IMG/VR virus record: IMGVR_UViG_3300041964_000072
Span: 1-64,000 of that record
From: a virus
DNA: 64,000 nucleotides
Direction: 5' to 3' (one strand)
The notes beneath the pieces were generated by a model. It was given only the letters and a program-made list of their open reading frames with translations. It was not told the origin of the DNA and made no database searches. Below, piece after piece: positions 6,535 through 59,293 of the stretch (position 1 is its first letter; the number at the start of each line of letters is the position of its first letter). Position numbers and translations under genes: made by a program.

Positions 6535-6624
6535 CATGCCCAAAACAAAACCGCTGTTATAAGCGGTTCGTTCCGACAGTCATACGACTATCCACAGGCT
6601 AAGCCTATTTTTATTTTATCTTAT

Positions 6625-6823
6625 TCATGAGGCATCCATGAGGCATGTCTCATCAGTGCCTCATGAAGGCAAAACCCTTGATTTATTTAGGCTTTCAGAC
6701 CGTGCATTAAAAAAAGATTACGGCTGGCTGTAATATCTATTGTTTCGTTCAAATCCCTTAGATAATCTGGTGAAGTTGAAGTGAAGAGGCAGTGATGAGA
6801 CGTGCATCATGACTGCCTCGTGA
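6625..6823. repeat. Pair of 42-bp imperfect inverted repeats (6625-6666 and 6782-6823), each internally repetitive
   Basis: Reverse complement of 6625-6666 matches 6782-6823 at 34/42 positions; built from ATGAGGCA-like units. Confidence 0.8.
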
Positions 6824-6834
6824 GGGAGGAATTG

Positions 6835-7149
6835 ATGACCTACGCTGTCCCCTGGTATGCCCAGGAAGCTGAATATGTCCAAGTCGTTGTTGACGGTGTT
6901 GCAAGGAAAACTCTTCGGAGTAACCTAGGCATCTCGAAAGCTCAGTTTGAGCGGTACTTAATCATTCTGCGAGAACACCCAAACACGAAAAGGCGATTTG
7001 ACTTTAAAAAAGGTCAGCAGCGATTTAACGATACCCAGTGCGAAATGCTATTCAAGCTTCGGAGTCTATTCCTTTCCGCCAATGAGGGGGGACAAGGCAT
7101 CCGAGGGTGGGATGCACTCAACGAATACCTAAACTATCCAGGGATTTGA
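6835..7149 (+). CDS. MerR-like/winged HTH DNA-binding protein (ORF track start 6802)
   Basis: RKTLRSNLGISKAQFERYL..L...F.....RFNDTQCEML pattern; GGAGGA RBS before ATG 6835. Confidence 0.55.
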   Translation: MTYAVPWYAQEAEYVQVVVDGVARKTLRSNLGISKAQFERYLIILREHPNTKRRFDFKKGQQRFNDTQCEMLFKLRSLFLSANEGGQGIRGWDALNEYLNYPGI

Positions 7150-7152
7150 AAA

Positions 7153-7773
7153 ATGGACAAGACTCAGATTAAACAAATAAGCAATCAACTTGAAGTCGCA
7201 GAAGGTTTGATAGAATCCACAATCCTTGAGCTTCGAGCAAACAGTGTTCCTGAAGCATATCTCGGAGATTATGTCAATGCCGTTATTCAAAAAATAAAGT
7301 TAAGGCGATATTCTGTAGCTGAAGGTGTGGCAGAAGTTTTTGAGGAGCAGCGTGCCCAAAGTGTTGATCAGGAGATGGGTAATGCTGGTATGGCACTTGC
7401 TGTACTCGGAGTAGAAGCAGAAAAAATCACTGATGATGCATCAGAATCCTTGGCAGCAGGGATTATCGTGGGTACTCTGAGCAAGACCAGCAAACTTTTA
7501 CAAGGTCAAACAACATTTAAAAACCCAGCGCTTCAGCAAATTACTTCTCACGCAAAAAGCAGTTTTTTCGGGAGTCTGCGGACATCGGGGACAGGATTGA
7601 ATCCGGCACAATCAATGTTCGCCCTTCATCAGTCCCCGACTCCCCAGGAAGTTCCAGCTCTAGATCCATTGCAACCTCAGCCAGCGACCACCTTGGAAGT
7701 ATCTTCGCAGCCAGTATCCTCAACGAGCGAACCCGCACCCAAGCAACAGAACGGGAGAAAGCCCACCAGTTGA
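7153..7773 (+). CDS. Hypothetical helical protein with Pro/Gln-rich tail
   Basis: 206-aa ORF, 3 nt after the upstream stop. Confidence 0.75.
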   Translation: MDKTQIKQISNQLEVAEGLIESTILELRANSVPEAYLGDYVNAVIQKIKLRRYSVAEGVAEVFEEQRAQSVDQEMGNAGMALAVLGVEAEKITDDASESLAAGIIVGTLSKTSKLLQGQTTFKNPALQQITSHAKSSFFGSLRTSGTGLNPAQSMFALHQSPTPQEVPALDPLQPQPATTLEVSSQPVSSTSEPAPKQQNGRKPTS

Positions 7774-7931
7774 TTATTGTTGCAGCAGCTTCCCCTATAG
7801 CGGGGGGAGTTGCGGGAAGTGCGATCGCTGCACGGTCAGGTTCCGATATTCCGACATTTACGCTCGGAGGAGCAATTATCTTTGCAGCGATCTTCGTCGG
7901 ACTTAGTAGGGTGCTTTTGGAGAACGGCTAA
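7770..7931 (+). CDS. Small two-helix membrane protein (53 aa; not in ORF track)
   Basis: TTG start: MIIVAAASPIAGGVAGSAIAARSGSDIPTFTLGGAIIFAAIFVGLSRVLLENG; overlaps both neighbouring start/stop codons. Confidence 0.55.
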   Translation: MIIVAAASPIAGGVAGSAIAARSGSDIPTFTLGGAIIFAAIFVGLSRVLLENG

Positions 7932-8185
7932 TGGTTTTGGAAGAAGTATTGATGAGTGCTTCGATTGGGTATGTAGCTTCGGTTCCATGTGCAGGAGCAG
8001 TAGCTTTCCTCAATGCAGGGGCAGTAGCGGCAATGTCTGTGATATTCGCTCCAGCAACAGTTGCGTTTACAGCAGCGGTAGGGGTATTGGCATGGCAAGC
8101 CCTTAAGCAAGTTATGTCTGTAGAAGATCGATTCGCAGTAGAAGTTTGGAGGCGAGGCTATGCAAGGCAGCAGCCGATCACCTGA
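7931..8185 (+). CDS. Small membrane protein (pilin-like hydrophobicity)
   Basis: About 50-residue hydrophobic stretch; TAATG coupling. Confidence 0.65.
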   Translation: MVLEEVLMSASIGYVASVPCAGAVAFLNAGAVAAMSVIFAPATVAFTAAVGVLAWQALKQVMSVEDRFAVEVWRRGYARQQPIT

Positions 8186-8939
8186 AGAGGAGCTAATTGA
8201 AAAGCTTTCGTCCTGTGCTGGCATGAAGCCCGTAACAAAAAATAGCAGACTATTTCCTACAGCAGTTATTACACTGTGCAGTGTCTTTGTGGTAGGAGTT
8301 TTTTCCTATGCTTCGTCGCAGATGTTCGCTGCAAACGAGGAAGTTCCAAACGAAGTTAGCGAATCCTACAAACTTGAGTTTCTTTCTGTGAAGGAATGGC
8401 TTGAGGAGATCAACCGAACTGACTATCGACCTATCCCCAAAAATCCTGGTGCAAGTCAACGACTAGCAATGTCTCTTGGAGGAGAAATCCGGCAAGACAT
8501 ACAAAAACAATTAGCGACGGATGGGCACCCGTGTAACAAAACCGGGGAGACGATCATTACTTGTGCATTACTTGCAGAGCTGGAACATGAGAGAGTTTTT
8601 CTTTATCCTGCAATGGCAGGAAAAAAATTCTTTATGACAGATGCGTGCCCACCTTCTCCTACTGGAAGTAAATATATTTGCCACGCACTAACCCAAGAGG
8701 AAGCCACTAACATGGCTTTATTTAAAACTCTAGGTTACGAGTATTCGAGTAGGGATTTTCTTGCCAATGTCGATATGTCCACGTTTCTGTTTGATCGAAA
8801 GCGTAGGGTTGTTTGGGACGCTAGGGCACGTAGGCTAGGGTATCAAGGAGAAGAAAGACCAGCAGAAATCATAAAACTACGGGAATCAACCATCCGTAGG
8901 TACGAAGATGCCAATAAGCCAGGAGGAGAGAAGAAATGA
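8160..8939 (+). CDS. Membrane-anchored protein with a Cys-containing extracytoplasmic domain
   Basis: TM LFPTAVITLCSVFVVGVFSYA followed by a soluble domain. Confidence 0.75.
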   Translation: MQGSSRSPEEELIEKLSSCAGMKPVTKNSRLFPTAVITLCSVFVVGVFSYASSQMFAANEEVPNEVSESYKLEFLSVKEWLEEINRTDYRPIPKNPGASQRLAMSLGGEIRQDIQKQLATDGHPCNKTGETIITCALLAELEHERVFLYPAMAGKKFFMTDACPPSPTGSKYICHALTQEEATNMALFKTLGYEYSSRDFLANVDMSTFLFDRKRRVVWDARARRLGYQGEERPAEIIKLRESTIRRYEDANKPGGEKK

Positions 8940-10459
8940 CTCCCGCCAACCTAAACATGGCTAAGTGTTTGGGAGCTATGGGAGCAGGAGTACTTCTGGT
9001 CTGTGGAGCATTTTTCCCTCTTCCAGGGAAGTCCCTAGAGCAAGTAGAAATGGACTCATGGACAGGCACTCCCACTCCTCCATCTCCGATGTCTCACCCA
9101 TTGTCTCCAGTGATGGGGGTAGGTGGACTTGTACTGTTCTGCTGGGGGGCATATCGGTTTTATAAAGACGGTGAGTATACGGACATGGTGATAGATCCGA
9201 ATGCGGTTCGGACTATGTTGACAGCCGATGTCCCTACCCAACCTGCTCAGAATGATGTTGTTCCTGAATATATTCCCATAGACGCTAAAGTAGCACCTGT
9301 TCAAGACACGGTAGCTCAATCACTCTCTGCGTCACAGGCACCTGCGGTCAATATACAGGTTCCCCTCAATATTCAGGATAAGTCCGTACCAATTCATCAC
9401 CCCCAACAAACTCCCAACCTGTCAGCATCTATCCCAATGCCTACGATTCCGACATCGAATAATCTTTCTTATGACGATGATGAGGATAAGGAGGATGATG
9501 AGGATGAATATTTTGATGAGAACGATGACGACGATAACGAAATTCACAAAGGTTTTGACATGATGGATGATTTACCTGAGATTGATGACATTGATGGAGA
9601 AATCCTGATTGAGGATGTTAGTACCGCAATTATTAACCACCTAAGAGACATCTCTCCTGATTTACCTATCGAGAAAAAAAAGGAGCTGCTTTGGGAATTC
9701 CTTCTTTTAAATTTCCCGTTAATAATACGTCTTCTGAAAGCGTTACCTCTAATAGTTTGGGGGGCACAACGTAGCGGAAAGTCATCGTTCGTTAAGTTCC
9801 TCTGTATCTTGCGCCAGCTTTTTTTGGGTCACATCATCGAGGTGTGTACGCCTCATGCGACAAAAGACCCGAAGAATGAAGCTCTAGATTACTGGTTTCA
9901 CTTTACAAAGGTCTATGGATACAAGGGAGATTATGAGGCAATAGGACAAAGAATTGTTACCTATTACAACAGAATCAAAGCACCTGGCAAAGATCCTATA
10001 ACTTGTGTATGGGATGAATATTCTCAATATGTAGAGCGCATACAGATTTACGAGTCAGAATCTAAAAACAAGATATACATTGGGAACCTAATCAAGTCTT
10101 TTGGGTGTGAAGCTCAGAAAATGCAAAACTATCCGATCATCATCTCTCATGGAAATACAAGCACATTTACAGGGAATAGCACAGGAACAAAACAAACAAG
10201 AGAAGAAGGTTTTGTCAGTATTAAACTTTTACATCAACGCAATCCTTTAGGAGATATTTCTCCTGCTGGGAAAGGATTCGTCAAGGGATTGGAATACGAC
10301 AGGCACGGAAAGCCTGTTACTGTTCACTTCGATGTTCCAGAGTGGTTGCGTCCGGAGTACTTAATAGAAGTCTTCCCTGAACTCAATCAGATGGAACAGG
10401 CAAAAAATATTCCAATGCCTACGATTGATAGAACTGATCTTTGGGGGACAAATAATTGA
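8936..10459 (+). CDS. Membrane-anchored P-loop ATPase, FtsK/VirD4/HerA-like
   Basis: Two N-terminal TMs, Pro- and Asp/Glu-rich linker, Walker A GAQRSGKS, Walker B ITCVWDEY. Confidence 0.75.
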   Translation: MTPANLNMAKCLGAMGAGVLLVCGAFFPLPGKSLEQVEMDSWTGTPTPPSPMSHPLSPVMGVGGLVLFCWGAYRFYKDGEYTDMVIDPNAVRTMLTADVPTQPAQNDVVPEYIPIDAKVAPVQDTVAQSLSASQAPAVNIQVPLNIQDKSVPIHHPQQTPNLSASIPMPTIPTSNNLSYDDDEDKEDDEDEYFDENDDDDNEIHKGFDMMDDLPEIDDIDGEILIEDVSTAIINHLRDISPDLPIEKKKELLWEFLLLNFPLIIRLLKALPLIVWGAQRSGKSSFVKFLCILRQLFLGHIIEVCTPHATKDPKNEALDYWFHFTKVYGYKGDYEAIGQRIVTYYNRIKAPGKDPITCVWDEYSQYVERIQIYESESKNKIYIGNLIKSFGCEAQKMQNYPIIISHGNTSTFTGNSTGTKQTREEGFVSIKLLHQRNPLGDISPAGKGFVKGLEYDRHGKPVTVHFDVPEWLRPEYLIEVFPELNQMEQAKNIPMPTIDRTDLWGTNN

Positions 10460-10827
10460 CTATGAGTGTTGGAAATCCTGTAGACTTCGCCTTGCTTCTA
10501 GAAGGTGCCGAAAAACTGAGCGATTTAAGACAAGAAACCTTAAAGGTAATTATTGAGGCTTGCCTCAAAGATCCCGAAGAGATTGACAGACTCAAGAAGC
10601 TTCTTGCTACAAACCCACACCTTCTTGAGGCAATTCTTTTTCAGATTCCTACGGCATTCAGAAAGCAGCCTAAAAGTTCCGTCCAGTTTATTTTTGCTTG
10701 TTTTGGTGTGGCATGTGCAACAGCACTCTTGTTTTTTCAGGTATTTAACCAGTCAAGAACTGGATACAGACCAGCATCAACAGGAGGTAGCTCGACATCA
10801 ATTCTTGATATAGAGATGAATCGCTGA
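10456..10827 (+). CDS. Single-pass membrane protein
   Basis: FIFACFGVACATALLFF TM segment; operon coupling. Confidence 0.7.
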   Translation: MTMSVGNPVDFALLLEGAEKLSDLRQETLKVIIEACLKDPEEIDRLKKLLATNPHLLEAILFQIPTAFRKQPKSSVQFIFACFGVACATALLFFQVFNQSRTGYRPASTGGSSTSILDIEMNR

Positions 10828-11054
10828 TGATTCGTTTTTCCCGGTTATCTAAAGGCTTAATGGGTGTTGCGGCAGCGTCGTTTGTCTCTAATGCCCTCAA
10901 GCCAGGAACGCTCACCTTTTTGGGTGAGCATTCCATAAAAGGGCATTTCGCAACATTACAAAAGGTAAGTAATGTAGGCAAGAAAGATACTGGCTTACCT
11001 AAGTGTAAAAAAACTCGCTATTCAGATATCCTTAATCTCCCATGCAGTAAATGA
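10827..11054 (+). CDS. Small hypothetical protein
   Basis: 75 aa, TGATG coupling. Confidence 0.5.
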   Translation: MIRFSRLSKGLMGVAAASFVSNALKPGTLTFLGEHSIKGHFATLQKVSNVGKKDTGLPKCKKTRYSDILNLPCSK

Positions 11055-12241
11055 GAATTAAGTTTCGAGGGAATCTGGAGTTTGATATGGAGTCCGCTCC
11101 CCCAGTTATTCCTCCAGCTCCCCAGCCTTTACCTCCCATTCCTCAAGCGCCTCCTACCACTCCCCCACCAGCAGTATTGCCATCTCAATCGGCTCCTACA
11201 GTGGTAGAGAAGCCTCTTCCAAATATAGAGATGCAGTACAAGCGGGGTGCGATCGCATCTTCGGTAATTGTCTGCCTTCTTGTAGGCGTGCAAATTCATC
11301 GTCCTACATGGAATTGGATAGAAAGTCAACGTGTAGTAAAGGAATTTCAACAAATCTTCTACAAGCCTCCTGTACGGGCTGTAGGCACGTTGACTTCCCC
11401 TGCGCCTAGAAAGGGTCAAAGGATAGGAAAGTACACCGTAACGAGTGGCTGGGGATGGCGAGATACGAAGATACCGGGGGCTAGTACGTTTCACCGAGGT
11501 ATCGATCTTGACACCCCTTCCGGGACTGTGGTTTATGCGATCGCATTTCCTGGGGAGTCGGTAATGGTTCGTTGTTGGTGGGATGCACGGGGGGGTGGGA
11601 GGGTTGCATCCTGGTCGTCTCGCAAGTTAAGGAAAGGATTCGATTACCTTCATCTGAGTCAATGCCGTGCGGGAAAGCATACTAAAGGTTCGATCATTGG
11701 GAGAACCGGAGATACTGGAGTCGGTGCTGCACATTTTCACTTACAGCAGCGCAATGATCAAGGAAATCTAGAACCTCCAGAAAAGCATTATGTAGAACTT
11801 GCCCTAAAAGGAGTTCCGCCCACCTATATCAAGCCGACCACAGGAATACTGACCAGCGGCTATGGATATCGGGTTTGCAAGAATTCTCCTGAGATGACGG
11901 GAGAGCATCTAGGAGTTGATTGGGCAAATGCTGTAGGAACTCCAATAGTCGCCGCTGCTGGTGGGGAAGTGATCTTTGCTGGATGGGATGCTGATGGATT
12001 AGGGAATATGGTAGCGATTCGGCACCATAACGGCAGCATTACTCGCTACGGGCACAACCATAAGCTGTTAGTAAGTAAAGGGCAGTGGGTAAAACAAAGA
12101 CAGACTATTACAGAGATGGGATCGACTGGCAATAGTACGGGTTCCCATTTGCATTTTGAGTTGGAGCTGAAGGATAGGAGGTTAGTAGATCCCTTAAAGT
12201 ATCTACCAAAAACTTTAGAAAAAGGACAGTTTTTATGTTGA
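11051..12241 (+). CDS. Membrane-anchored peptidoglycan endopeptidase with two M23 domains
   Basis: HRGID...HFH and HLGVD...GNSTGSHLHFE: two HxxxD/HxH zinc motif sets. Confidence 0.9.
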   Translation: MRIKFRGNLEFDMESAPPVIPPAPQPLPPIPQAPPTTPPPAVLPSQSAPTVVEKPLPNIEMQYKRGAIASSVIVCLLVGVQIHRPTWNWIESQRVVKEFQQIFYKPPVRAVGTLTSPAPRKGQRIGKYTVTSGWGWRDTKIPGASTFHRGIDLDTPSGTVVYAIAFPGESVMVRCWWDARGGGRVASWSSRKLRKGFDYLHLSQCRAGKHTKGSIIGRTGDTGVGAAHFHLQQRNDQGNLEPPEKHYVELALKGVPPTYIKPTTGILTSGYGYRVCKNSPEMTGEHLGVDWANAVGTPIVAAAGGEVIFAGWDADGLGNMVAIRHHNGSITRYGHNHKLLVSKGQWVKQRQTITEMGSTGNSTGSHLHFELELKDRRLVDPLKYLPKTLEKGQFLC

Positions 12242-12609
12242 ATTCAGGTGACAAGTACAAACCGATTAGAACACAACACATCCAAAGAGAAGTTAAGTAT
12301 TACCATTCCGAAAATTACCTAATCATGAACCATCATCCAATGAGCAACGAAGAACTTACGGTTAAGGTGCGGTTTCAAGAAGAAGAAATCAAGGCACTGA
12401 GAAGGGAGTTGCGGCAAAAGAATACTCTGACCATATCTAAGTCCGCTGGAAACCTGTCTCATATAGGGTTAACGGCTTTGTTTGGAGGTGCGATCGCTGG
12501 ATTAATATTTCTGGTAATCAGACCTTCTTTGGTAGACAATGCCGCACTACTAGGGGCGTTAGCGGGAGGTACGTCAGCAGCACTAAGACAACGAGAAGAG
12601 AAGCAGTAA
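12235..12609 (+). CDS. Coiled coil plus two-TM membrane protein
   Basis: IGLTALFGGAIAGLIFLVI and ALLGALAGGTSAAL segments. Confidence 0.7.
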   Translation: MLNSGDKYKPIRTQHIQREVKYYHSENYLIMNHHPMSNEELTVKVRFQEEEIKALRRELRQKNTLTISKSAGNLSHIGLTALFGGAIAGLIFLVIRPSLVDNAALLGALAGGTSAALRQREEKQ

Positions 12610-12615
12610 AGAGGC

Positions 12616-12915
12616 ATGGCAAAGGCAAATTTTAGTTGTAGTCATTGTGGTAGTGATAGAGTATCCGCAACAAATGAAGGGAAAAATGTAAATAGGGGTT
12701 ATTGCACTTTCTGTTTATCTAGCACAAGTGATACTGCTGGAACGATTTGGCATAAAACGCATTTACCTCCTGAGACGAGAACTTCTTTAACTGAAGCTTA
12801 CGAAGAAGGGCAAGGAGTACGCCAAGCAGCTCGTGAGATAGGAGTAAACAAGAACACCGTAAGTAAATGGTTTTCTCGTTTAAACACACAGAATACCCCA
12901 GACGAAAAAGCATGA
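12616..12915 (+). CDS. IS1 InsA-like zinc-ribbon plus HTH protein, without a transposase domain
   Basis: CSHC...CTFC, GTIWHKTHLP, GQGVRQAAREIGVNKNTVSKW. Confidence 0.7.
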   Translation: MAKANFSCSHCGSDRVSATNEGKNVNRGYCTFCLSSTSDTAGTIWHKTHLPPETRTSLTEAYEEGQGVRQAAREIGVNKNTVSKWFSRLNTQNTPDEKA

Positions 12916-13457
12916 ACGCTCATGTAGTATCCATAGGAGCGCTGGGAGTATTGTTCTTAGCCTCCTCTAATTATCAGAATATCTCTACAGCAATATCTTC
13001 TGTTTCCACAGGATCATCCAAACCAGTGACAGGCAACATAGAAGCTCTCCGATATGCCATTATTGGGCAGGAGAGTGGCGGAAACCCCAAGATTCGTAAC
13101 TCGGATACTGGGGCAGCGGGACTAGGGCAAATCATGCCCTCGAACATTCCCAACTGGTCATATCAGGCGATTGGGCGAAGGTTGACTGTTAATCAGTTTT
13201 TGTCCAGTCCCCAGCTCCAGAAAACTATTATTGACCATAAACTTAATGAGTACTACCAAAGGGAACTTGTTAAAGCTAAGGGTGATGAGCGCTTGGCAGT
13301 GCGACGGGTAGCGTCTGCTTGGTATAGCGGGAATGCCAACTGGTATAAATCCACTAGACCCCAGTGCGAAAAATCCGGCAGGTGCTATCCAAGCATCCAG
13401 GATTACAGCCTAGCTATACTTAATCGCTATGAAAAAGAAAAAGCGAAGAACAAGTAA
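12912..13457 (+). CDS. Lytic transglycosylase (SLT/lysozyme-like) with N-terminal signal anchor (ORF track start 12867)
   Basis: AIIGQESGGNP...GAAGLGQIMP SLT motifs; ATGA overlap with the upstream gene. Confidence 0.85.
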   Translation: MNAHVVSIGALGVLFLASSNYQNISTAISSVSTGSSKPVTGNIEALRYAIIGQESGGNPKIRNSDTGAAGLGQIMPSNIPNWSYQAIGRRLTVNQFLSSPQLQKTIIDHKLNEYYQRELVKAKGDERLAVRRVASAWYSGNANWYKSTRPQCEKSGRCYPSIQDYSLAILNRYEKEKAKNK

Positions 13458-15809: not shown

Positions 15810-17117
15810 TTAAGGGTACTGCCCACTCATTTCCTCTTCTGGAGGAGGAGGGACTTCCGCTCCTGGCTGCGGTGCCCCTGCGGATATTGACTGAAGTTCC
15901 ATTTGCTGTAACATTTGTTTTTTCTTCGTCGTCATATCCATGTGTGGAAGGTCTAACCTATCCCGTAATTTATTCACGGCATCCATATCCGTTTGCCCGT
16001 CGATAATGCCCATACTCAGAGCATTAATTAACATCTGAGTATTCATCTGTTCGCTAGCTTCGTCCACCTCAGCGCTCACATCAAAAGTACCATAGGTACT
16101 GATTTTGCGTCCCCAATTTGCTTGGATTACAGGTTTAACTGCTTTTTCTATTAATTCGTCCCGGATTTGCTCAACAATTGCCTGAATTGTACTATCCATT
16201 AGGGAGACATGTTTTCCAGCAAGTGATGCAGGTTTTGTAAGAGAAGATGAACCTTCATTGAATACTAAATCAGGTACAGTAAAGCTTCTTTTGATATATA
16301 AATCAAACTGGTTTAACGACGATGCCCAGAACTGAGAACCATCCCCAACTTGCACAGAAAAAATATCATTGTTGCTATCCGTTACCATCCAGGAATTACT
16401 TTCTAGTCCCTCAAACTGACGAGCTAAAGCTTCACTGGCAGGCAGGGATTTTATCGGTCTTCCATTACGGTCATAAAGGTTTACGGTAGTGTCCGTAACC
16501 TTACCAACTAATATGCCTGTAGCCAAATTTTTGCCAGCGATAACCATATTGGACAAAAATGCATTCTTTGCCTTAATAAATGCCAAGGCGCTTTGCATTT
16601 CTGGATTACCAAAAGGGTCATCAAAATCAGTAGAAAATCCATTGACTACATGAATTACTTTCCAATAAGGAATCGGTTTTTTCTGGTTGTCCCTGTACAT
16701 TAAGTATCGAATTTGCCCATTCGATCCTTTAAAAGTAATATGTCGCTGGTCAAGGACATCCAAGGATTTCACAACCATTTTGCGATTCCTTAGTCCAAAC
16801 TCAATTTCCGCTGCACTAAAACCTAATGGCATAGCGCTAGCTAATTGAGCAATAACTTTACTTAGGGAACCTGAAATGTTTGCAAACATTTCCCTAATAA
16901 AAAACTGAACCTGCTTATCTTGATGCTCATAATCCCCTACCGTAATAGCTGCTCGAAGTGCTTTCAATTCACAGCAACTTCTAGCGATAGGGTCTTTCTT
17001 CATATACTTGATATATTCATCAAGACTTGCAGCATGTTCCCCACTGATTTCTTTCAGTGTTGTATCTGCTAAAGCACTAATTTTTGAGGCAATTTTTCCT
17101 GTAATGTCGTAAGGCAT
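15810..17117 (-). CDS. Portal protein (Mu gp29/DUF935-like)
   Basis: 435 aa; YIKYMKKDPIARSCC, LGFSAAEI, NPEMQSAL..., closing DAVNKLRDRLDLP; size and pattern fit DUF935 portals. Confidence 0.8.
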   Translation of the reverse strand: MPYDITGKIASKISALADTTLKEISGEHAASLDEYIKYMKKDPIARSCCELKALRAAITVGDYEHQDKQVQFFIREMFANISGSLSKVIAQLASAMPLGFSAAEIEFGLRNRKMVVKSLDVLDQRHITFKGSNGQIRYLMYRDNQKKPIPYWKVIHVVNGFSTDFDDPFGNPEMQSALAFIKAKNAFLSNMVIAGKNLATGILVGKVTDTTVNLYDRNGRPIKSLPASEALARQFEGLESNSWMVTDSNNDIFSVQVGDGSQFWASSLNQFDLYIKRSFTVPDLVFNEGSSSLTKPASLAGKHVSLMDSTIQAIVEQIRDELIEKAVKPVIQANWGRKISTYGTFDVSAEVDEASEQMNTQMLINALSMGIIDGQTDMDAVNKLRDRLDLPHMDMTTKKKQMLQQMELQSISAGAPQPGAEVPPPPEEEMSGQYP

Positions 17118-23934: not shown

Positions 23935-24942
23935 ATGAATAAGAAAACAATAGATGATTTGCGATACGCTGTTATCGAAACATTACTTCCAAAAACACAA
24001 AAATCCCCCTATTTTAAATCTTGTGCAAGGAATCGTTATCGGCGGACTAAGAATTATGTTTCCTGGGATGTTTTAGCGCTATCCTTGGCAGGGCAAATTG
24101 TTGTCGCAGAGGAGATGGGAAGCAAATTAGTCTCGAAAGATCAGGTACTAGCATCTACTACAGTATGTGGTTGGATTTTTGCCCATGAAGAGGTTCCAAT
24201 ATACTGCTTAGAGCCAGAACTGTACAAAGCTTTTCAGGTTACAGACTTACCCGCTGATATCGGCAAACTGGAAAGAGTATTGCCCTATGGAGTAATCCTG
24301 CTTCCCAATGGATTGATGAAAAATCCCGATGGGTACGCAGTCGATTGGATTATGTTTGAGCATGTTCTCAAGGATGAGGTATTTGACCCTATCCGTTTAA
24401 AGAAATTCTCCATCTTGGGAGAGCCAGCGGAAGCAAATAAAATAAGAATGGTTACTGTATCACTAAATGGATGCGCTTATTCCAGCGTTGTCGAACTTAG
24501 TGATCAATTGAAATATGGTGATCTGACCATTGCCGATAGTGTATATCGAGCAGGGACGAACACGGATGTAGACTTAGAGCAGCGCTTTACCCGTAAACTA
24601 TCTAATTTAGTATTTCAATTCTTATTGTTCCTGGATGGGTATCCAGGGCATACCGATGTAGAGAGTAGTGAAAAAACTAAGGTAAATCTAAAAGCGAAGA
24701 CCGGGGGATTTGGAGGCGGCAAGAATGCTCCTGCTGAGTACCAGAAAATTCCGATCCGGGTAGGAGTCAACTTCCAAGCTCCATCGGCTCCAAAGAATAC
24801 CTACCAAGGGGGAACCCATGCATCGCCTAGGTGTCATTGGCGGATGGGACATACAAGGAAGATTCGAGTACCCAATGAAGGTACGATTAGAGAAGTCAAA
24901 GTTAGACCAGCAATGGTTAATAAGTGGAATGTAAAGGAGTAA
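23935..24942 (+). CDS. Phage hypothetical protein with C-terminal HWRxGH motif
   Basis: THASPRCHWRMGHTRKIR...VRPAMVN, a common phage C-terminal motif. Confidence 0.7.
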   Translation: MNKKTIDDLRYAVIETLLPKTQKSPYFKSCARNRYRRTKNYVSWDVLALSLAGQIVVAEEMGSKLVSKDQVLASTTVCGWIFAHEEVPIYCLEPELYKAFQVTDLPADIGKLERVLPYGVILLPNGLMKNPDGYAVDWIMFEHVLKDEVFDPIRLKKFSILGEPAEANKIRMVTVSLNGCAYSSVVELSDQLKYGDLTIADSVYRAGTNTDVDLEQRFTRKLSNLVFQFLLFLDGYPGHTDVESSEKTKVNLKAKTGGFGGGKNAPAEYQKIPIRVGVNFQAPSAPKNTYQGGTHASPRCHWRMGHTRKIRVPNEGTIREVKVRPAMVNKWNVKE

Positions 24943-53068: not shown

Positions 53069-55144
53069 TTAATGCTTTACTGTTAATATTTTAGCTTTCC
53101 TGAATAGGGCTAAATTGGGATAATTTCTTTGTAAATTAGCGTCACCTTCAGTAGATGCTCGAATCAAGTCAACAAGTCGTTTCTGTTGCCTAGCCTTTAC
53201 TTTGAGATTCATTTTTTTGTATCTTTGAGTTATGTAAAAAACCTTATTTGGATTATATTTTGTACCATTTATAGAGAGGCTATAAGTGGGATAAGCCCTA
53301 CTTACTTGTTCAAACAATCCCTGAATATTTCGGATAAATGGACTATCTTCCTGCAATAAAGAATCCATTTCGTCTACATCCCGGATAGTCTGGATGATGC
53401 GATTATTTAAAATATCAGATTCGCCTATCAAGTTTCCTGCTGTAGGATCGTCTATCATCGACATTAAGCGATTAGTCTTCCGGGCAACCCCTGTCAGCTC
53501 AGCATTAATAAGTAAAAATTGATTTTCCATATTCAAGAGCCGTTGAAGCTCTCTACGCAATTCCGCCAACAACGGTTTTGCCGACTGCCTTGCGGCTAAT
53601 AGCTGTTGCTGTTGTTGTACTTGCTGTTGTACTGCTGGAGACTCTATCGCTTTTTGGGTAGCCTCTACCTCTGGCTCAGCAATAGGTGAAATCAAGTCCT
53701 CTACTGTTTTAACGCCCGGAACAAATTCAAGTATTTCAGACATAACTCTTTCCTTAATCTCTTTGACATATTCTGGATGAGACTTGAGGTAAAAGTAGTA
53801 CATCAAGCCAATCGACAATATAGAGGTTGTGACAAAGAGTAGTTTTAAGCGTTCCTGGTCTTCCTGTTGTTTTTTGAGTTCTTGTAGTTGATAATATAGG
53901 CTTAACGTTTCATAGGTATTTGGGTTTAACATCAATAATGCTTCCTGAGTAAGAAAGGAAGTTATTGCTTTACCTACCACACCCTTAATAATGCCTTGCT
54001 TTTGCTGTGCAACACCTCCCTGCAAAGTGTTGCGAATACGCTCAATCTCATCTTCTGGTGTCTTTCCTGCTGCAATTAATCGTTCAAGATCTTTTTGGTT
54101 TCGGATTGGCTCTAGAAAGCAGTCACAAAAAGGATGGACTGGCGGATAAGGATGGGTGGTTTGTCTTTGTGCAGGTTTTTTGGTATCAACTCTACGGAAG
54201 TCTGTAAAAAAATAACTCTTCAAATCTGGGACAAGGCTTACTAAGCGCCCATCCATGCTCGTACACAACTCGCACGTCTCTCGCCCAGACATCCTCCAAA
54301 TAAAATCCGACACCCCTCTTGATAGAAATCGGTCTGCACGTCCTAGATTATAGGCGGCGTTAATCTCTGTTTGTGCAATACGATCAATCCTATTGATCGG
54401 ATTAATTTTATAGAAAGCGCTGTCATAGGATTCGGGGTCAGATGCGATCGCATCTTTCAAACCATACGTTCCTTTAATCTGTTTCAAACGATCAGGGTTG
54501 ACGTTCTTTTGGATTTCAGATAACTGACGCTGGTTTAGTAGGGGTAAGAGTTCCTTTCGCTCTGCTGGGGTCAAGTCCGTGAACCGCTTAAAGCTGAGCC
54601 TATTGATTAAGGTACGTTCCTTGTTGGTAGTCAAGCCTACGTTTACATCGGATTTGATATAACGGCTGATTGAGTCTCTAATTTTGCGAGTATATTCATT
54701 GGTAAAAGATCTCGCAATCACGTTATTACGTTCATTCAGGTATATTTGCCCAAACTCCGTTGTAGCAATTGGAGTCCTACCTTCATACTGAATAGTACGT
54801 CGCTTCTCTCGTCCTGATCTCGTTTTGATGCGAGAAGCTGCTTCATCTTTGCTTAGGTTGTCTGCCAGAAACTCAGCAATATCAGTAGATTCATTGAATT
54901 TCGCAAGTGATTCCTGCCCATAGGAAAAGCCCTGATTCCAAAGACCTGTCAGCTCTCCTTTAAGTATGGATGTGAAAGGAATATCAATCCTTTCTAGGAC
55001 TTTTGGATCTTTGTCTATGAGAGGTTTTATGTTCTTTTTTAACCACTGCTCATAAGCGTTGTTGATTTTGGTAAATGTCCTTTGTACAAACTGATTTTTA
55101 TAATTTACTCGCTGGGAATTGCTGAATAAAGAGTCATATTTCAT
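53069..55144 (-). CDS. MuF/SPP1 gp7-like minor head protein with a TM-containing C-terminal extension
   Basis: RIAQTEINAAYNLG...TCELCTSMDG...PPVHPFCDC. Confidence 0.85.
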   Translation of the reverse strand: MKYDSLFSNSQRVNYKNQFVQRTFTKINNAYEQWLKKNIKPLIDKDPKVLERIDIPFTSILKGELTGLWNQGFSYGQESLAKFNESTDIAEFLADNLSKDEAASRIKTRSGREKRRTIQYEGRTPIATTEFGQIYLNERNNVIARSFTNEYTRKIRDSISRYIKSDVNVGLTTNKERTLINRLSFKRFTDLTPAERKELLPLLNQRQLSEIQKNVNPDRLKQIKGTYGLKDAIASDPESYDSAFYKINPINRIDRIAQTEINAAYNLGRADRFLSRGVSDFIWRMSGRETCELCTSMDGRLVSLVPDLKSYFFTDFRRVDTKKPAQRQTTHPYPPVHPFCDCFLEPIRNQKDLERLIAAGKTPEDEIERIRNTLQGGVAQQKQGIIKGVVGKAITSFLTQEALLMLNPNTYETLSLYYQLQELKKQQEDQERLKLLFVTTSILSIGLMYYFYLKSHPEYVKEIKERVMSEILEFVPGVKTVEDLISPIAEPEVEATQKAIESPAVQQQVQQQQQLLAARQSAKPLLAELRRELQRLLNMENQFLLINAELTGVARKTNRLMSMIDDPTAGNLIGESDILNNRIIQTIRDVDEMDSLLQEDSPFIRNIQGLFEQVSRAYPTYSLSINGTKYNPNKVFYITQRYKKMNLKVKARQQKRLVDLIRASTEGDANLQRNYPNLALFRKAKILTVKH

Positions 55145-57401: not shown

Positions 57402-57713
57402 ATGACTGATACCCTTGTCTTTGAGATCTTGAAAATGTGTCTAGGACAAAAAGCGGTAGTAGATATCTATACCCCGTCAGACATGTTCATTGACGCTCAC
57501 TTAGTTAAATTGTCCGACGAGTATGTAGTCTTTACGAGTACCGAGCTAGATTTTCAGCCTGAAGACTTACTGGCAAGCGTGGGTTGTTCTGGCAATTTGA
57601 AAGAATCCCTTCCTAAAGGAGATAGCAAAATTAAGCAGTTTTGCTGGAAGATATCCGATATTAATGGAGTTAGCCACACACTCGCTACCTTCCCATCCGA
57701 TACGGATAATTAG
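57402..57713 (+). CDS. Hypothetical protein (Sm-like beta pattern)
   Basis: GQKAVVDIYT...AHLVKLSDEYVVF. Confidence 0.55.
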   Translation: MTDTLVFEILKMCLGQKAVVDIYTPSDMFIDAHLVKLSDEYVVFTSTELDFQPEDLLASVGCSGNLKESLPKGDSKIKQFCWKISDINGVSHTLATFPSDTDN

Positions 57714-59293
57714 CCAAACAACTGCCTAAAGTATGTGGTAGTTGTGGGGATTTGATACTGAGCGGGAATCTCAAATAACTTCTTGGCTTCAGCCGTTTCA
57801 TTGAAGCTATTAGTCCCCATAACAACTGATGATGTATTTCGTTCTAGAGTAAGGTAATTGATGCCCTGTGCGATCGCATCTACCTGATCATCATATTTCC
57901 CATTGGGGAAGGCTAATAATTCTGCAATCAATTCTTGTACCCACGGATATCGCTGGGGATTTGGAAAATAAATATTACCACTGGTGAAAAAAGGGAGTGA
58001 AGCGAGAAGCCGCTCCTCTTTGCTTTTGGTAGGGCTTACTGCATGAATGCCTGGTATTTGATTTTCAAGCATTTGAATAAGTGGACTACCATTTGATTTC
58101 CGCTCAACAATCTTTGCTCGTACTGGGAATGTGTGGCAAAGCTGTTTGAAGAGGTTGATTTGAGCAGGGAAATCTATCTGCCCACGCACGGCATGGAAGA
58201 CATAGATATTAGCAAGAATACGCCCAAGGATAATGAACGAGCTGTAGTTTGATTCCTGTGTGGATTCTGTTGCTAAATCGACGGTGAGAATAACATCATT
58301 GCATAGGCTAATATCGGGTAAATTATCAGTGAATTTTAAGTATTCTGTCTTGACATAAGCACCGTCAGAACCCGATGGATTTTGCTGGTAAATCGCTTGC
58401 CAAGTTAGCGGGTTTTTCTTTTCAATATGATAGTAATCGCCATCAAAACGACTTGGACAGATTAAATCCCCTTCCTTCTTTCTGGGATCATTTCGCCCAA
58501 TCGGTGATGCAATCATCAATTTGGGTTCGTATTCTGCGGGAAGGATTACTTGTGTCCAACCTGGCTCATTTTCAAGCACATAATCCGTAATATCTCCATT
58601 CGCTAGTCGCTGCTGAATTAAAAGTTTTCTGGCTGTTCTTGAATTATTTGCACGATTTCGGAGTACATTTTTGTAGAAATTTACTGCCTTAATAATTGCC
58701 GCTTGGGAATAAATGGCATCTGAAGAGTTAAGGTCATCCATTATCAAACTGGTGTAACCCAAACCTAATATCTGAGTGGTTGGTGTCACTCCAAGTCGGT
58801 AGCCTTTTTCGTTGTTATCGAAGCGTAATTTTGTGTTGCTATCAGAAGTCAATCTGAATCGCTTGTGCTTATCAATCCAATGCGTTTTGTACCAATTGCT
58901 TGTAATTAATGAACGACATTTAATGGAGAGGTCAACCACTAAGCGCTCAGTATGGCTTGCTGCCATAATCTTTTCAGAAGGATTACGCAGCCATAGCCAT
59001 GCCGGATAAACAACGCTACATAGTAGTGACTTACCTAGTCGGGGATGTAGATTGATAATTAAGTTTTGGCAATGAGGATCACCTTTTGCTTGAGCAGTCA
59101 GATGATCTGCAATAAGGTCTAGATGCCAGCAACTTAGGTATTTTTCGGATTCAATCTCATTCCATGCTCTGATGAAAAAATGCCTAAGACTTTCCTCTGC
59201 CAACTTATAATCTTCATCAATAAGTTGGCGTTCAAGATCGAGTAGTTTTTGTGAGTTAGATGGCATTAAAAAGGGACAAGAATCCCCTTTCAA
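57710..59293 (-). CDS. terL: Terminase large subunit
   Basis: INLHPRLGKS (Walker A), LIMDD (Walker B), IQQRL, TVDLA, YDDQVDA nuclease motifs. Confidence 0.93.
   Translation of the reverse strand: MKGDSCPFLMPSNSQKLLDLERQLIDEDYKLAEESLRHFFIRAWNEIESEKYLSCWHLDLIADHLTAQAKGDPHCQNLIINLHPRLGKSLLCSVVYPAWLWLRNPSEKIMAASHTERLVVDLSIKCRSLITSNWYKTHWIDKHKRFRLTSDSNTKLRFDNNEKGYRLGVTPTTQILGLGYTSLIMDDLNSSDAIYSQAAIIKAVNFYKNVLRNRANNSRTARKLLIQQRLANGDITDYVLENEPGWTQVILPAEYEPKLMIASPIGRNDPRKKEGDLICPSRFDGDYYHIEKKNPLTWQAIYQQNPSGSDGAYVKTEYLKFTDNLPDISLCNDVILTVDLATESTQESNYSSFIILGRILANIYVFHAVRGQIDFPAQINLFKQLCHTFPVRAKIVERKSNGSPLIQMLENQIPGIHAVSPTKSKEERLLASLPFFTSGNIYFPNPQRYPWVQELIAELLAFPNGKYDDQVDAIAQGINYLTLERNTSSVVMGTNSFNETAEAKKLFEIPAQYQIPTTTTYFRQLFG

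What the first reader, a model, noticed from the sequence alone, without database searches (positions are those of the whole stretch)
6835..13457. Phage-borne DNA-transfer/spreading-like operon (FtsK/VirD4-type ATPase + membrane proteins + double M23 + SLT)
Seen: about 12 translationally coupled genes, comprising an HTH, several small TM proteins (including an unannotated 53-aa one), a TM-anchored P-loop ATPase, a two-domain M23 endopeptidase and a signal-anchored transglycosylase. No relaxase or VirB4-VirB11 set is recognisable in the window. Established: Streptomyces TraB (FtsK-like) plus Spd membrane proteins move dsDNA without a relaxase and spread it within mycelia. Inference: an analogous system could move the phage genome cell-to-cell along cyanobacterial filaments through peptidoglycan septa, independent of virions. 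Alternative: an elaborate lysis cassette, which would not need the ATPase.
Basis: partly seen in the sequence, partly recalled or inferred. Interest (0 to 1): 0.72.

Follow-up and report, generated by a model that had tools for sequence, protein, structure and literature searches.

The report
Conjugation-like DNA-transfer cassette on a cyanophage
A large tailed cyanophage carries a 12-gene cassette (a membrane-anchored FtsK/TcpA-like ATPase, small membrane proteins and two cell-wall hydrolases) whose closest relatives sit beside relaxase genes on mobile elements found only in hetR-carrying (filamentous-type) cyanobacteria, so it most likely derives from an undescribed minimal DNA-transfer machine, although its role in the phage is untested.

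Summary
Window 6835-13457 holds 12 co-directional, mostly overlapping genes, including a 2-TM P-loop ATPase, a TM-anchored double M23 peptidase and a signal-peptide SLT.

The ATPase has no Pfam, NCBIfam or PDB sequence match. It belongs to a family of about 216 cluster representatives. An AF2 model (pLDDT 88.6) matches TcpA and FtsK best (Z 14-15; RecA-like 13.0 or below). Profile comparison gives 91.5% probability against FtsK_SpoIIIE domains and 0.3% against RecA.

The family was found in 35 of 103 hetR-positive and 0 of 298 hetR-negative cyanobacterial genomes. It occurs on plasmids, islands and MIS-PhV1-like phages. The window's ATPase groups with island copies that share its layout (bitopic protein, ATPase, TM proteins, M23, glycosidase). 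In two of these loci a MobA/VirD2 relaxase and NikA lie directly beside the operon. No VirB4 was found.

The host record is a real tailed phage. Its available 132.7 kb (about 65% complete) shows no relaxase and no VirB4.

Best reading (0.55): a portable, VirB4-less conjugation-type transfer cassette captured by a phage. Spread of phage DNA along filaments is plausible but unproven. A lysis role is not excluded, because these were the only peptidoglycan hydrolases found among the six families searched.

The parts
6624..6667 (.). 44-bp palindrome built from TTCATGAGGCA units, about 100 bp upstream of the -10-like TAGATAAT; candidate operator
   Evidence: the repeat finder pair I2. The motif clusters only here and at 6803-6823 in the 132.7-kb record.
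6786..6823 (.). Second related palindrome or hairpin (13-nt arms, 8-nt loop) between the promoter-like region and the Shine-Dalgarno sequence of the lead gene
   Evidence: the repeat finder pairs I1 and I4; sequence read.
6835..7149 (+). Lead gene, 104 aa. Conserved first gene of the cassette; possible DNA-binding or regulatory protein, HTH not verified
   Evidence: GGAGG lies 6 nt before the ATG. Homologues head the operon in L002, in the relaxase islands L050/L051 and in MIS-PhV1-type phages (alignment A5; hhalign P 2.7e-4). No Pfam or PDB hit.
7153..7773 (+). 206-aa soluble protein with a Pro/Ser/Gln-rich C-terminal tail; function unknown
   Evidence: ORF. Weak homologue at the same position in L002. 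No family hit.
7770..7931 (+). 53-aa Gly/Ala-rich membrane protein with two hydrophobic segments
   Evidence: Hydropathy. A 49-aa TM ORF occupies the same position in L002.
7931..8185 (+). 84-aa membrane protein with 2 TM
   Evidence: Hydropathy. An 83-aa 2-TM ORF sits at the same place in L002. Small 1-3-TM proteins (about 60-105 aa, or about 140-220 aa in the phage and plasmid sub-families) lie just upstream of the ATPase, or of the bitopic protein, in many relatives.
8160..8939 (+). 259-aa bitopic protein (N-terminal TM at 29-53, extracytoplasmic domain). VirB8/TcpC-like by position and topology only
   Evidence: Hydropathy. Homologue in L002 at 26% identity, E 1e-16. TM-anchored proteins of about 214-250 aa hold the same position in L003, L010, L011, L017, L050 and L051. 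No fold or family match.
8936..10459 (+). 507-aa membrane-anchored ATPase: N-terminal TM segment(s), an acidic/Pro-rich linker of about 170 aa, and a divergent FtsK/SpoIIIE/TcpA-like P-loop domain (residues about 245-490). Proposed coupling protein or DNA pump
   Evidence: Motifs. AF2 pLDDT 88.6. VIA-align: TcpA Z 15.0, FtsK 14.9, RecA-like 13.0 or below. hhalign against FtsK_SpoIIIE 91.5% and against RecA 0.3%. 216 family representatives.
10456..10827 (+). 123-aa protein with a C-terminal TM
   Evidence: Hydropathy. Homologue follows the ATPase in L002.
10827..11054 (+). 75-aa protein with a signal-like N-terminus (read by eye)
   Evidence: ORF. A 73-aa counterpart in L002 (hhalign P 3e-4).
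11051..12241 (+). 396-aa endopeptidase: Pro-rich cytoplasmic N-terminus, a hydrophobic anchor near residues 66-83 (read by eye, not scored by hydropathy), and two M23 domains (about 120-255 and 285-385), both with HxxxD and HxH
   Evidence: Pfam PF01551 7e-40 with two stretches. The anchor plus the first domain match the single-domain M23 of the relaxase islands at 34-40% identity.
12235..12609 (+). 124-aa protein with a coiled-coil-like middle and a C-terminal TM
   Evidence: Hydropathy. No homologue found.
12616..12915 (+). 99-aa protein with a four-Cys N-terminal region (zinc-ribbon-like by eye) and an HTH
   Evidence: Pfam HTH_23 7e-6 and Sigma70_r4_2 8e-6.
12912..13457 (+). Lytic transglycosylase (SLT), 181 aa from ATG 12912, with an N-terminal signal peptide or anchor MNAHVVSIGALGVLFLASS
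   Evidence: Pfam PF01464 6.6e-7. ES catalytic motif read from the sequence. ATGA start/stop overlap.

Best explanation
The operon is a phage-carried copy of a portable, previously undescribed conjugation-type envelope-crossing cassette. This cassette is common on mobile elements of hetR-carrying (filamentous-type) cyanobacteria.

Proposed mechanism:
- The membrane-anchored ATPase forms an FtsK/TcpA-like ring at the cytoplasmic membrane. There it acts as a coupling protein or DNA pump.
- The small TM proteins and the bitopic 259-aa protein form the membrane channel or scaffold.
- The membrane-anchored double M23 endopeptidase and the secreted SLT open the peptidoglycan locally.
- The two palindromes and the small DNA-binding proteins regulate the unit.

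Shown here: the gene content; the FtsK/TcpA-like nature of the ATPase; conservation of the cassette as a unit on unrelated backbones; physical linkage of its closest relatives to a relaxase and NikA; restriction to hetR-positive genomes; and residence on a phage record.

Inferred: ring formation, DNA as the substrate, and the use the phage makes of the cassette. That use could be transfer of phage or other DNA to a neighbouring cell. In filamentous cyanobacteria this needs only inner membrane, septal peptidoglycan and inner membrane to be crossed, because the outer membrane is continuous along the filament (established knowledge, not tested here).
For: 1. ATPase class.
- Top structural matches are TcpA (Z 14.3-15.0) and FtsK (14.1-14.9), then EccC/EssC (12.5-13.6). 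The RecA-like plateau is 13.0 or below.
- hhalign against nine cyanobacterial FtsK_SpoIIIE domains gives Prob 91.5%, P 8.7e-7 over 131 columns. These columns align Walker A, DPK/DPH, Walker B and ATQRP/ISHGxT. RecA gives Prob 0.3%.
- The architecture, a TM anchor followed by a single motor domain, is that of TcpA.

2. Cassette conservation.
- In L010, L011, L050, L051 (and L017), the order is lead gene, a ~200-aa protein, a ~85-aa TM protein, a ~240-aa bitopic protein, ATPase, TM protein, a ~145-aa protein, TM-anchored M23 and GH108 muramidase.
- In L051 and L011 a Relaxase PF03432 (6e-32 and 2e-19) plus NikA-like protein lie convergently next to it.
- No phage structural family and no VirB4 family was detected within about 10 kb.

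3. Phylogeny. The window's ATPase falls with L002, L003 and the relaxase-linked clade (support 98/96).

4. Orthology of the hydrolase. The island M23 proteins match the anchor and first M23 domain of the window protein. The glycosidase is replaced non-orthologously (GH108 against SLT), which suggests both activities are needed.

5. Portability. L002/L094 shares the whole cassette with the window's phage but nothing else.

6. Distribution. 35 of 103 hetR-positive genomes and 0 of 298 hetR-negative genomes carry the family (Fisher P 1.4e-23). Nearly all named loci come from filamentous taxa: Microcoleaceae, Kamptonema, Oscillatoriales, Nostoc, Calothrix, Scytonema and a Phormidium phage. Two MAG loci are labelled otherwise.

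7. Membrane-anchored, multi-domain peptidoglycan hydrolases are typical of monoderm-type conjugation systems (PMC4027160).
Against: - No relaxase, VirB4 or VirB6-like polytopic protein is present in the 132.7 kb available. Only the ATPase, M23 and lead gene show detectable homology to relatives. The other components match only in size, position and topology.
- The ATPase misses the Pfam FtsK_SpoIIIE threshold. The Z-score margin over RecA-like folds is only about 2.
- The window's protein has no C-terminal DNA-recognition domain.
- M23 and SLT are the only peptidoglycan hydrolases found in the record among six families searched, so the phage may use them for lysis.
- Family members in MIS-PhV1-type phages and on Nostocales plasmids lack adjacent hydrolases.
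- The hetR association may reflect the host range of these elements rather than function.
- The cassette lies 7-13 kb from the contig end, and no phage hallmark gene lies to its left. Residence inside the phage genome rather than in neighbouring DNA is likely but not proven. Tetranucleotide usage there is not aberrant.
Confidence: 0.55

Rival explanations
1. It is the phage's lysis cassette. M23 and SLT act as endolysins exported by their own signal or anchor. The small TM proteins act as holin, antiholin or spanin-like factors. The ATPase is a passenger or a regulator.
For: No Amidase_2, Amidase_3, Phage_lysozyme or Peptidase_M15_4 was found in 132.7 kb, and M23 and SLT occur only in this operon. 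Several small TM proteins are present. PHROGs labels many M23 families as endolysin.
Against: The same cassette order, with an orthologous anchored M23, sits beside a relaxase and NikA on non-phage islands. The operon is convergent with the structural genes rather than at the end of the late operon, and it has its own palindromic control region. The M23 protein has a 65-aa cytoplasmic tail before its anchor, unlike typical SAR endolysins. About 35% of the genome is missing and could hold the true lysis genes.
Confidence: 0.17
2. It is a membrane system used in conflicts between mobile elements or in superinfection exclusion. For example, it could expel or block incoming DNA. Alternatively it is a protein-secretion device of the EssC/EccC kind rather than a DNA exporter.
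For: EccC/EssC domains are among the best structural matches (Z 12.5-13.6). The family is strictly borne on mobile elements, and several copies occur per genome.
Against: The protein has a single ATPase domain rather than the three of EccC/EssC. No WXG-like substrates or other T7SS parts were seen. Linkage to a relaxase and NikA in the nearest clade points to DNA export.
Confidence: 0.13
3. It is a decaying remnant of a mobilisable island that landed in, or next to, the phage and has no current function.
For: No relaxase is present. The cassette lies near the contig end and has slightly higher G+C (0.445 against about 0.42).
Against: All 12 frames are intact and tightly coupled. The catalytic motifs of the ATPase, both M23 domains and SLT are intact. 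Tetranucleotide usage is not aberrant.
Confidence: 0.08

Closest known systems
Tcp conjugation locus of Clostridium perfringens pCW3 and the Tn916/ICEBs1 (MPF_FA) group, with the TcpA coupling protein
   Same: An N-terminally membrane-anchored, FtsK-like single-domain ATPase is the best structural match (6o1x Z 15.0). Small 2-TM proteins (TcpD/E-like), a bitopic protein (TcpC-like by topology) and membrane-anchored peptidoglycan hydrolases sit in one operon (pCW3 map). A relaxase lies beside the operon in the closest relatives.
   Different: There is no VirB4-type ATPase (TcpF), no VirB6-type polytopic protein (TcpH) and no second FtsK-like protein (TcpB). There is no sequence-level match to PF01580, and hhalign against TcpA alone covers only the P-loop. 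The hydrolase domains are M23 plus SLT or GH108, not glucosaminidase plus NlpC/P60. The host is a diderm, and here the carrier is a phage.
Streptomyces TraB/Spd double-stranded DNA conjugation and intramycelial spreading (PMC4447253)
   Same: A single FtsK-like membrane-associated motor works with several small membrane proteins, without VirB4. The hosts are multicellular and filamentous. The window has no relaxase.
   Different: The nearest relatives of this cassette are linked to a MobA/VirD2 relaxase and NikA, which TraB systems lack. The window's ATPase has no C-terminal wHTH. No clt-like 8-mer array was identified. TraB/Spd systems are not described with dedicated peptidoglycan hydrolases (my knowledge).
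MPF_C, the VirB4-based type IV secretion class of cyanobacterial plasmids (PMC4027160)
   Same: Same host phylum, also on plasmids and islands of Nostocales and Oscillatoriales.
   Different: MPF_C is defined around VirB4 with VirB3/6/8/9/10 homologues. None of these was detected here or next to the homologous cassettes.
Minimal FtsK-type transfer units such as the pELF2 tra operon of Enterococcus faecium (PMC13492992)
   Same: An operon of about 12 genes is centred on FtsK/VirD4-type ATPases. One of them (TraC) has two TM helices and a C-terminal ATPase domain without sequence similarity to known families. Accessory membrane proteins are assigned by topology.
   Different: pELF2 has two ATPases and a VirB6 analogue. 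It is a linear plasmid of a monoderm. No homology to it was tested here.
gp49 of Phormidium phage MIS-PhV1B (phrog_29669) and its operon in MIS-PhV1-like prophages
   Same: It belongs to the same ATPase family (P0060, E 1e-15). A homologous lead gene heads the operon. The carrier is a tailed phage of filamentous cyanobacteria.
   Different: It lies in a different clade of the family. No M23 or glycosidase is adjacent, and the accessory genes differ. It is annotated only as hypothetical.

Membership tests
FtsK/SpoIIIE/TcpA-type translocase and coupling ATPases (FtsK-HerA superfamily) | Walker A, a strand ending in DP(K/H), Walker B hhhhDE and a polar sensor motif, in the canonical order | tested here: met
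   The hhalign alignment with nine FtsK_SpoIIIE domains pairs GxQRSGKS with GTTGSGKS, DPH with DPK, IWDE with FDEY, and ISHGxT with ATQRP. K58 and P82 are invariant in 116 sequences, and D136/E137 are conserved in at least 90%.
FtsK/SpoIIIE/TcpA-type translocase and coupling ATPases (FtsK-HerA superfamily) | Significant match to the curated family model (Pfam PF01580) | tested here: not met
   No Pfam hit at E<=0.01 for the window protein. PF01580 is not among the 25 families shown (of 40 matched) for the homologues at E<=1.
FtsK/SpoIIIE/TcpA-type translocase and coupling ATPases (FtsK-HerA superfamily) | Profile-profile similarity to FtsK_SpoIIIE domains that exceeds similarity to other ASCE ATPases | tested here: met
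   Prob 91.5%, P 8.7e-7, 131 columns against FtsK_SpoIIIE. Prob 0.3%, P 0.23 against RecA.
FtsK/SpoIIIE/TcpA-type translocase and coupling ATPases (FtsK-HerA superfamily) | Fold closest to solved FtsK and TcpA motor domains | tested here: met
   TcpA Z 14.3-15.0 (201-206 residues aligned, rmsd about 4). FtsK Z 14.1-14.9 (212-216 aligned). RecA/Rad51 13.0 or below. Foldseek alone ranks RecA first, so the margin is modest.
FtsK/SpoIIIE/TcpA-type translocase and coupling ATPases (FtsK-HerA superfamily) | Hexameric ring that translocates DNA | not testable with these tools
   No multimer modelling or assay was available.
FtsK/SpoIIIE/TcpA-type translocase and coupling ATPases (FtsK-HerA superfamily) | C-terminal winged-helix DNA-recognition (gamma) domain, as in FtsK and TraB | tested here: not met
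   The window protein ends 24 residues after the motor domain. Some homologues carry tails of 70-150 aa whose fold was not tested.
VirD4/TrwB-type type IV coupling proteins | Match to the T4SS-DNA_transf, TrwB_AAD_bind or TraG-D_C models, and an all-alpha domain inserted in the nucleotide-binding domain | tested here: not met
   No Pfam hit. The motor domain is only about 260 aa. TrwB scores Z 11.6, below TcpA and FtsK.
Complete conjugative type IV secretion system (any MPF class) | VirB4-family ATPase | tested here: not met
   AAA_10 is absent from the record. Apart from this ATPase, the only canonical Walker A ORF with a P-loop role is a DnaB-like helicase. No VirB4 family appears among 43 neighbours of the island cassettes. 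The record is about 65% complete.
Complete conjugative type IV secretion system (any MPF class) | Relaxase with an accessory protein | tested here: not met
   PF03432 is absent from the record, and there is no hit with an HMM built from the island relaxases. A relaxase and NikA are present next to the homologous cassettes in L051 and L011. Other relaxase families were not searched.
Complete conjugative type IV secretion system (any MPF class) | Dedicated, membrane-anchored peptidoglycan hydrolase in the transfer operon | tested here: met
   M23 x2 (anchor near residues 66-83, read by eye) and SLT. Orthologous M23 plus GH108 in the island cassettes, where hydropathy scores the anchor.
Complete conjugative type IV secretion system (any MPF class) | VirB8-like bitopic and VirB6-like polytopic channel proteins | tested here: inconclusive
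   A 259-aa bitopic protein is present, but it has no fold or family assignment. No protein with five or more TM segments is in the operon.
Streptomyces TraB/Spd dsDNA transfer | Relaxase-independent system with a clt site of repeated 8-mers bound by the motor's wHTH | tested here: inconclusive
   The window has no relaxase, but the closest relatives do. The only repeat cluster is the promoter-proximal palindrome pair. The motor has no wHTH.
Phage lysis cassette | Endolysin plus holin placed at the end of the late operon | tested here: inconclusive
   M23 and SLT are the only peptidoglycan hydrolases found among six families searched, and small TM proteins exist. However, the operon is convergent with the structural module and is separately controlled, and the cassette also occurs on relaxase islands.

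The most novel reading that the evidence does not exclude
Mobile elements of filamentous cyanobacteria, including this phage, use a minimal FtsK/TcpA-like pump with dedicated septum-cutting hydrolases to move their DNA directly from cell to cell along the trichome. They exploit the shared periplasm, so only inner membrane, septal peptidoglycan and inner membrane are crossed. For the phage this would be a virion-independent route of spread. For the many cyanobacterial plasmids now scored as non-mobilisable it would be an overlooked transfer system.
Probability: 0.2. Interest if true: 0.9.

Novelty: new variant of a known kind. Interest (0 to 1): 0.7.

Why it matters
Conjugation in cyanobacteria is almost unstudied. 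One survey predicts 88% of their plasmids to be immobile under the current model (PMC8600333). The ATPase family here has no Pfam, NCBIfam or PDB sequence match, yet it occurs in a third of the hetR-positive genomes sampled. It is found on plasmids, islands and phages. In its nearest clade it is wired to a relaxase, NikA and two peptidoglycan hydrolases, without VirB4.

If this is a working transfer system, it defines a new minimal class of DNA-transfer machine in a diderm. It would also give a concrete, testable candidate for gene flow within and between cyanobacterial filaments. Finding it on a tailed phage raises the possibility that a phage can move, or mobilise other DNA, without virions.

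Tried and rejected
- Sequence searches of the ATPase were uninformative. Pfam, NCBIfam and PDB gave nothing beyond P-loop noise. The word-index protein search found only the protein itself. tblastn against 50,697 phage records found no match. A motif scan of IMG/VR found no relatives.
- A single-sequence AF2 model was useless (pLDDT 41).
- Foldseek alone ranked RecA first. I did not accept this after VIA-align and hhalign both favoured FtsK/TcpA.
- hhalign against the single TcpA or TcpF sequences aligned only the P-loop region.
- Accessory proteins could not be linked across sub-families by hhalign on thin profiles, except the lead gene and the 75-aa protein.
- PDB profile searches of the lead gene and of the c1 family found nothing. 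ESM Atlas gave nothing for the 259-aa protein or its island counterpart.
- Large genes downstream of many chromosomal copies turned out to be housekeeping genes, not VirB4 or VirB6: a nucleoside transporter, UvrD, UbiD, homoserine dehydrogenase and a GATase.
- The flanking phage genes have no relatives in IMG/VR, so I could not test whether sister phages lack the cassette.
- I considered a membrane-virus packaging ATPase and rejected it. The record has a terminase, a tape measure and a portal-like gene.

Full report
**What is there.** The window is the first 64 kb of a 132,738-bp linear IMG/VR virus record that CheckV rates about 65% complete. Twelve + strand ORFs run from 6835 to 13457, with overlaps or gaps of a few bases at nearly every junction. 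The lead gene starts at ATG 6835, 6 nt after a GGAGG. The last gene most plausibly starts at ATG 12912, in an ATGA overlap with the stop of the preceding gene.

Upstream lie two related palindromes, 6624-6667 and 6786-6823, that bracket a -10-like TAGATAAT. Their TCATGAGGCA unit clusters only there in the whole record.

The products are:
- a 104-aa conserved lead protein;
- a 206-aa soluble protein;
- 53-aa and 84-aa membrane proteins;
- a 259-aa bitopic protein;
- a 507-aa ATPase with an N-terminal TM anchor, a long acidic/Pro-rich linker and a P-loop domain (GAQRSGKS, VWDEY);
- a 123-aa protein with a C-terminal TM;
- a 75-aa protein;
- a 396-aa protein with two M23 domains (Pfam 7e-40; both HxxxD and HxH intact);
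- a 124-aa protein with a C-terminal TM;
- a 99-aa protein with a Cys-rich region and an HTH_23;
- an SLT transglycosylase with a signal-like N-terminus.

**The carrier is a real tailed phage.** The window encodes a 2264-aa tape measure (PhageMin_Tail), a large terminase (Terminase_6C) and a Mu-type portal-like protein. The rest of the record encodes a DnaB-like helicase, family A DNA polymerase, both RNR subunits, DndB, a C5 methylase, a PcfJ-like protein and an IS605 TnpB.

Apart from a regex match inside the tape measure, the only canonical Walker A ORFs are this ATPase and the helicase. Relaxase PF03432 and AAA_10 are absent. An HMM built from the island relaxases finds nothing.

One caveat remains. 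No phage hallmark gene lies to the left of the cassette, which sits 7-13 kb from the contig end. G+C there is slightly higher, but tetranucleotide usage is not aberrant.

**What the ATPase is.** It has no Pfam, NCBIfam or PDB sequence match. Its only annotated relative is phrog_29669, of unknown function. A full HMMER scan of 1.8 billion cluster representatives found 216 relatives, mostly 450-650 aa, with the conserved domain at the C-terminus.

With 116 of them as an alignment, AF2 gives a confident model (pLDDT 88.6, pTM 0.87). An exhaustive structural comparison puts the pCW3 coupling protein TcpA first (Z 15.0, 204 residues). FtsK motor domains follow (Z up to 14.9, 212-216 residues), then EccC/EssC (12.5-13.6). 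A plateau of RecA/Rad51-like proteins lies at 13.0 or below. Foldseek alone ranks RecA first, so I sought an independent test.

Profile-profile comparison of the family with nine cyanobacterial FtsK_SpoIIIE domains gives Prob 91.5% and P 8.7e-7 over 131 columns. Fourteen RecA sequences give Prob 0.3%. The FtsK alignment pairs Walker A, the DPK/DPH strand end, Walker B and the ATQRP/ISHGxT sensor strand.

The family is therefore a divergent branch of FtsK/SpoIIIE/TcpA-like ATPases. Its architecture, a TM anchor followed by a single motor domain, is that of TcpA. It lacks a gamma-type C-terminal domain and misses the PF01580 threshold.

**Where the family lives.** Loci with organism names come almost all from filamentous cyanobacteria: Microcoleaceae, Kamptonema, Oscillatoriales, and Nostoc, Calothrix and Scytonema plasmids. 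Two MAG loci carry other labels (Obscuribacterales, Actinomycetota). One member is gp49 of Phormidium phage MIS-PhV1B.

In an even sample of 401 cyanobacterial genomes the family occurs in 35, all of 4.1-8.5 Mb. Several genomes carry more than one copy, often on small replicons. All 35 carry hetR (Peptidase_S48), which 103 of the 401 have. That is 35/103 against 0/298, Fisher P 1.4e-23. To my knowledge hetR marks filamentous lineages. The association is not corrected for phylogeny.

**Gene neighbourhoods (41 loci).** The ATPase is always at or near the end of a co-directional operon of small proteins. Three arrangements recur.

A. In L009-L011, L050 and L051 (and L017) the order is: lead gene, a ~200-aa protein, a ~85-aa TM protein, a ~240-aa bitopic protein, ATPase, a ~160-aa TM protein, a ~145-aa protein, TM-anchored M23 and a GH108 muramidase. 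In L051 and L011 a MobA/VirD2 relaxase (6e-32, 2e-19) and a NikA-like protein follow immediately and convergently. DnaG or DUF3987 primases lie nearby. No phage structural family and no VirB4 family was detected.

B. MIS-PhV1-type phages and prophages have a homologous lead gene and the ATPase, but different accessory genes and no hydrolases.

C. Nostocales plasmids carry another set of accessory genes.

Large genes downstream of many chromosomal copies are housekeeping genes, which places the operon at the edge of an island.

**Placing the window's cassette.** In a tree of 40 motor domains the window's ATPase groups with L002, L003 and arrangement A (support 98/96). It lies apart from the phage and plasmid clade B/C.

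The island M23 proteins match the anchor and first M23 domain of the window protein at 34-40% identity. The glycosidase is a different family (SLT instead of GH108). This non-orthologous replacement suggests that both peptidoglycan-cleaving activities are needed.

The closest relative is L002, on a 60-kb metagenomic contig. It shares the lead gene, the 206-aa, 259-aa and 123-aa proteins, the ATPase, the 75-aa protein and the M23. It shares nothing else with the phage. The cassette is thus a portable unit that has been placed on unrelated backbones.

**Interpretation.** The most economical reading is that this is a conjugation-type transfer cassette. Its parts would be a TcpA/FtsK-like coupling ATPase or DNA pump, membrane channel and scaffold proteins, and dedicated anchored peptidoglycan hydrolases.

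Membrane-anchored, multi-domain hydrolases and TcpA-type coupling proteins are hallmarks of monoderm conjugation systems (PMC4027160; pCW3 map). Minimal FtsK-centred transfer units with poorly conserved membrane partners are a recognised theme (PMC13492992, PMC4447253).

This system differs from every described class in four ways:
- it lacks VirB4 and VirB6;
- it occurs in a diderm;
- it is confined to hetR-positive cyanobacteria in the sample;
- here it is carried on a phage without a detectable relaxase.

A monoderm-like minimal system makes sense in filamentous cyanobacteria. Their outer membrane is continuous along the trichome (established knowledge). Transfer to the neighbouring cell therefore needs only two cytoplasmic membranes and the septal peptidoglycan to be crossed.

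The relaxase linkage in relatives also argues against the strict TraB/Spd analogy.

**Rivals.** A lysis role cannot be dismissed. Among six hydrolase families searched, M23 and SLT in this operon are the only hits in 132.7 kb. Against it are the homologous cassettes on relaxase islands, the convergent orientation relative to the structural module, the separate control region and the missing 35% of the genome. Exclusion, secretion and decay readings are weaker (see Rival explanations).

**Verdict.** The cassette most likely derives from an undescribed, VirB4-less transfer system of mobile elements in filamentous cyanobacteria (confidence 0.55). Its function in the phage is untested.

Noticed in passing
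window 6624-6667 and 6786-6823: Two related palindromes built from TCATGAGGCA-type units bracket a promoter-like region. The second one could also fold as a 13-bp hairpin in the 5' leader, just before the Shine-Dalgarno sequence of the lead gene. The motif is not repeated as a cluster anywhere else in the 132.7-kb record.
   Followed up: partly
window 15810-17117 (-): A Mu-type portal-like gene (Portal_Mu, 2e-16) lies about 40 kb from the large terminase (57710-59293). It sits outside the main head-tail gene string, which has its own 691-aa candidate portal at 53069-55144. It may be a second or relic portal-like gene.
   Followed up: no
window 23935-24942 (+): This 335-aa ORF has homologues (24-27% identity, E down to 1e-17) in MIS-PhV1-like prophages of several cyanobacterial genomes (cluster c16). 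It is therefore a second gene shared between this phage and that phage group, besides the ATPase family.
   Followed up: no
G000 109319-110683 (L025:5319-6683): A PcfJ-like protein (Pfam PF14284, 1.4e-8), a family named after a gene of the conjugative plasmid pCF10, sits between the DnaB-like helicase and the DNA polymerase of the phage.
   Followed up: no
G000 95417-96661 and 130988-132241 (L024, L026): A DndB-like protein (1e-70) stands without other dnd genes among the ORFs scanned. An IS605 OrfB/TnpB-like gene lies near the right end of the record.
   Followed up: no
cyanobacterial genomes G001-G035: Canonical FtsK_SpoIIIE domains were found in only 9 of 31 sampled cyanobacterial genomes at E<=1e-20. 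Most of the sampled genomes therefore showed no canonical FtsK at this threshold.
   Followed up: no
L017:9560-18619: A family member with M23 and GH108 downstream lies next to a class II RNR-like gene. This locus may be another phage-borne copy of the hydrolase-containing cassette. It was not resolved.
   Followed up: partly
window 8936-10459, residues about 80-245: The linker between the TM anchor and the motor domain is about 170 aa of Pro/Gln-rich sequence followed by an extremely acidic tract (DDDEDKEDDEDEYFDENDDDDNE). Homologues also have long low-complexity linkers of variable sequence.
   Followed up: no
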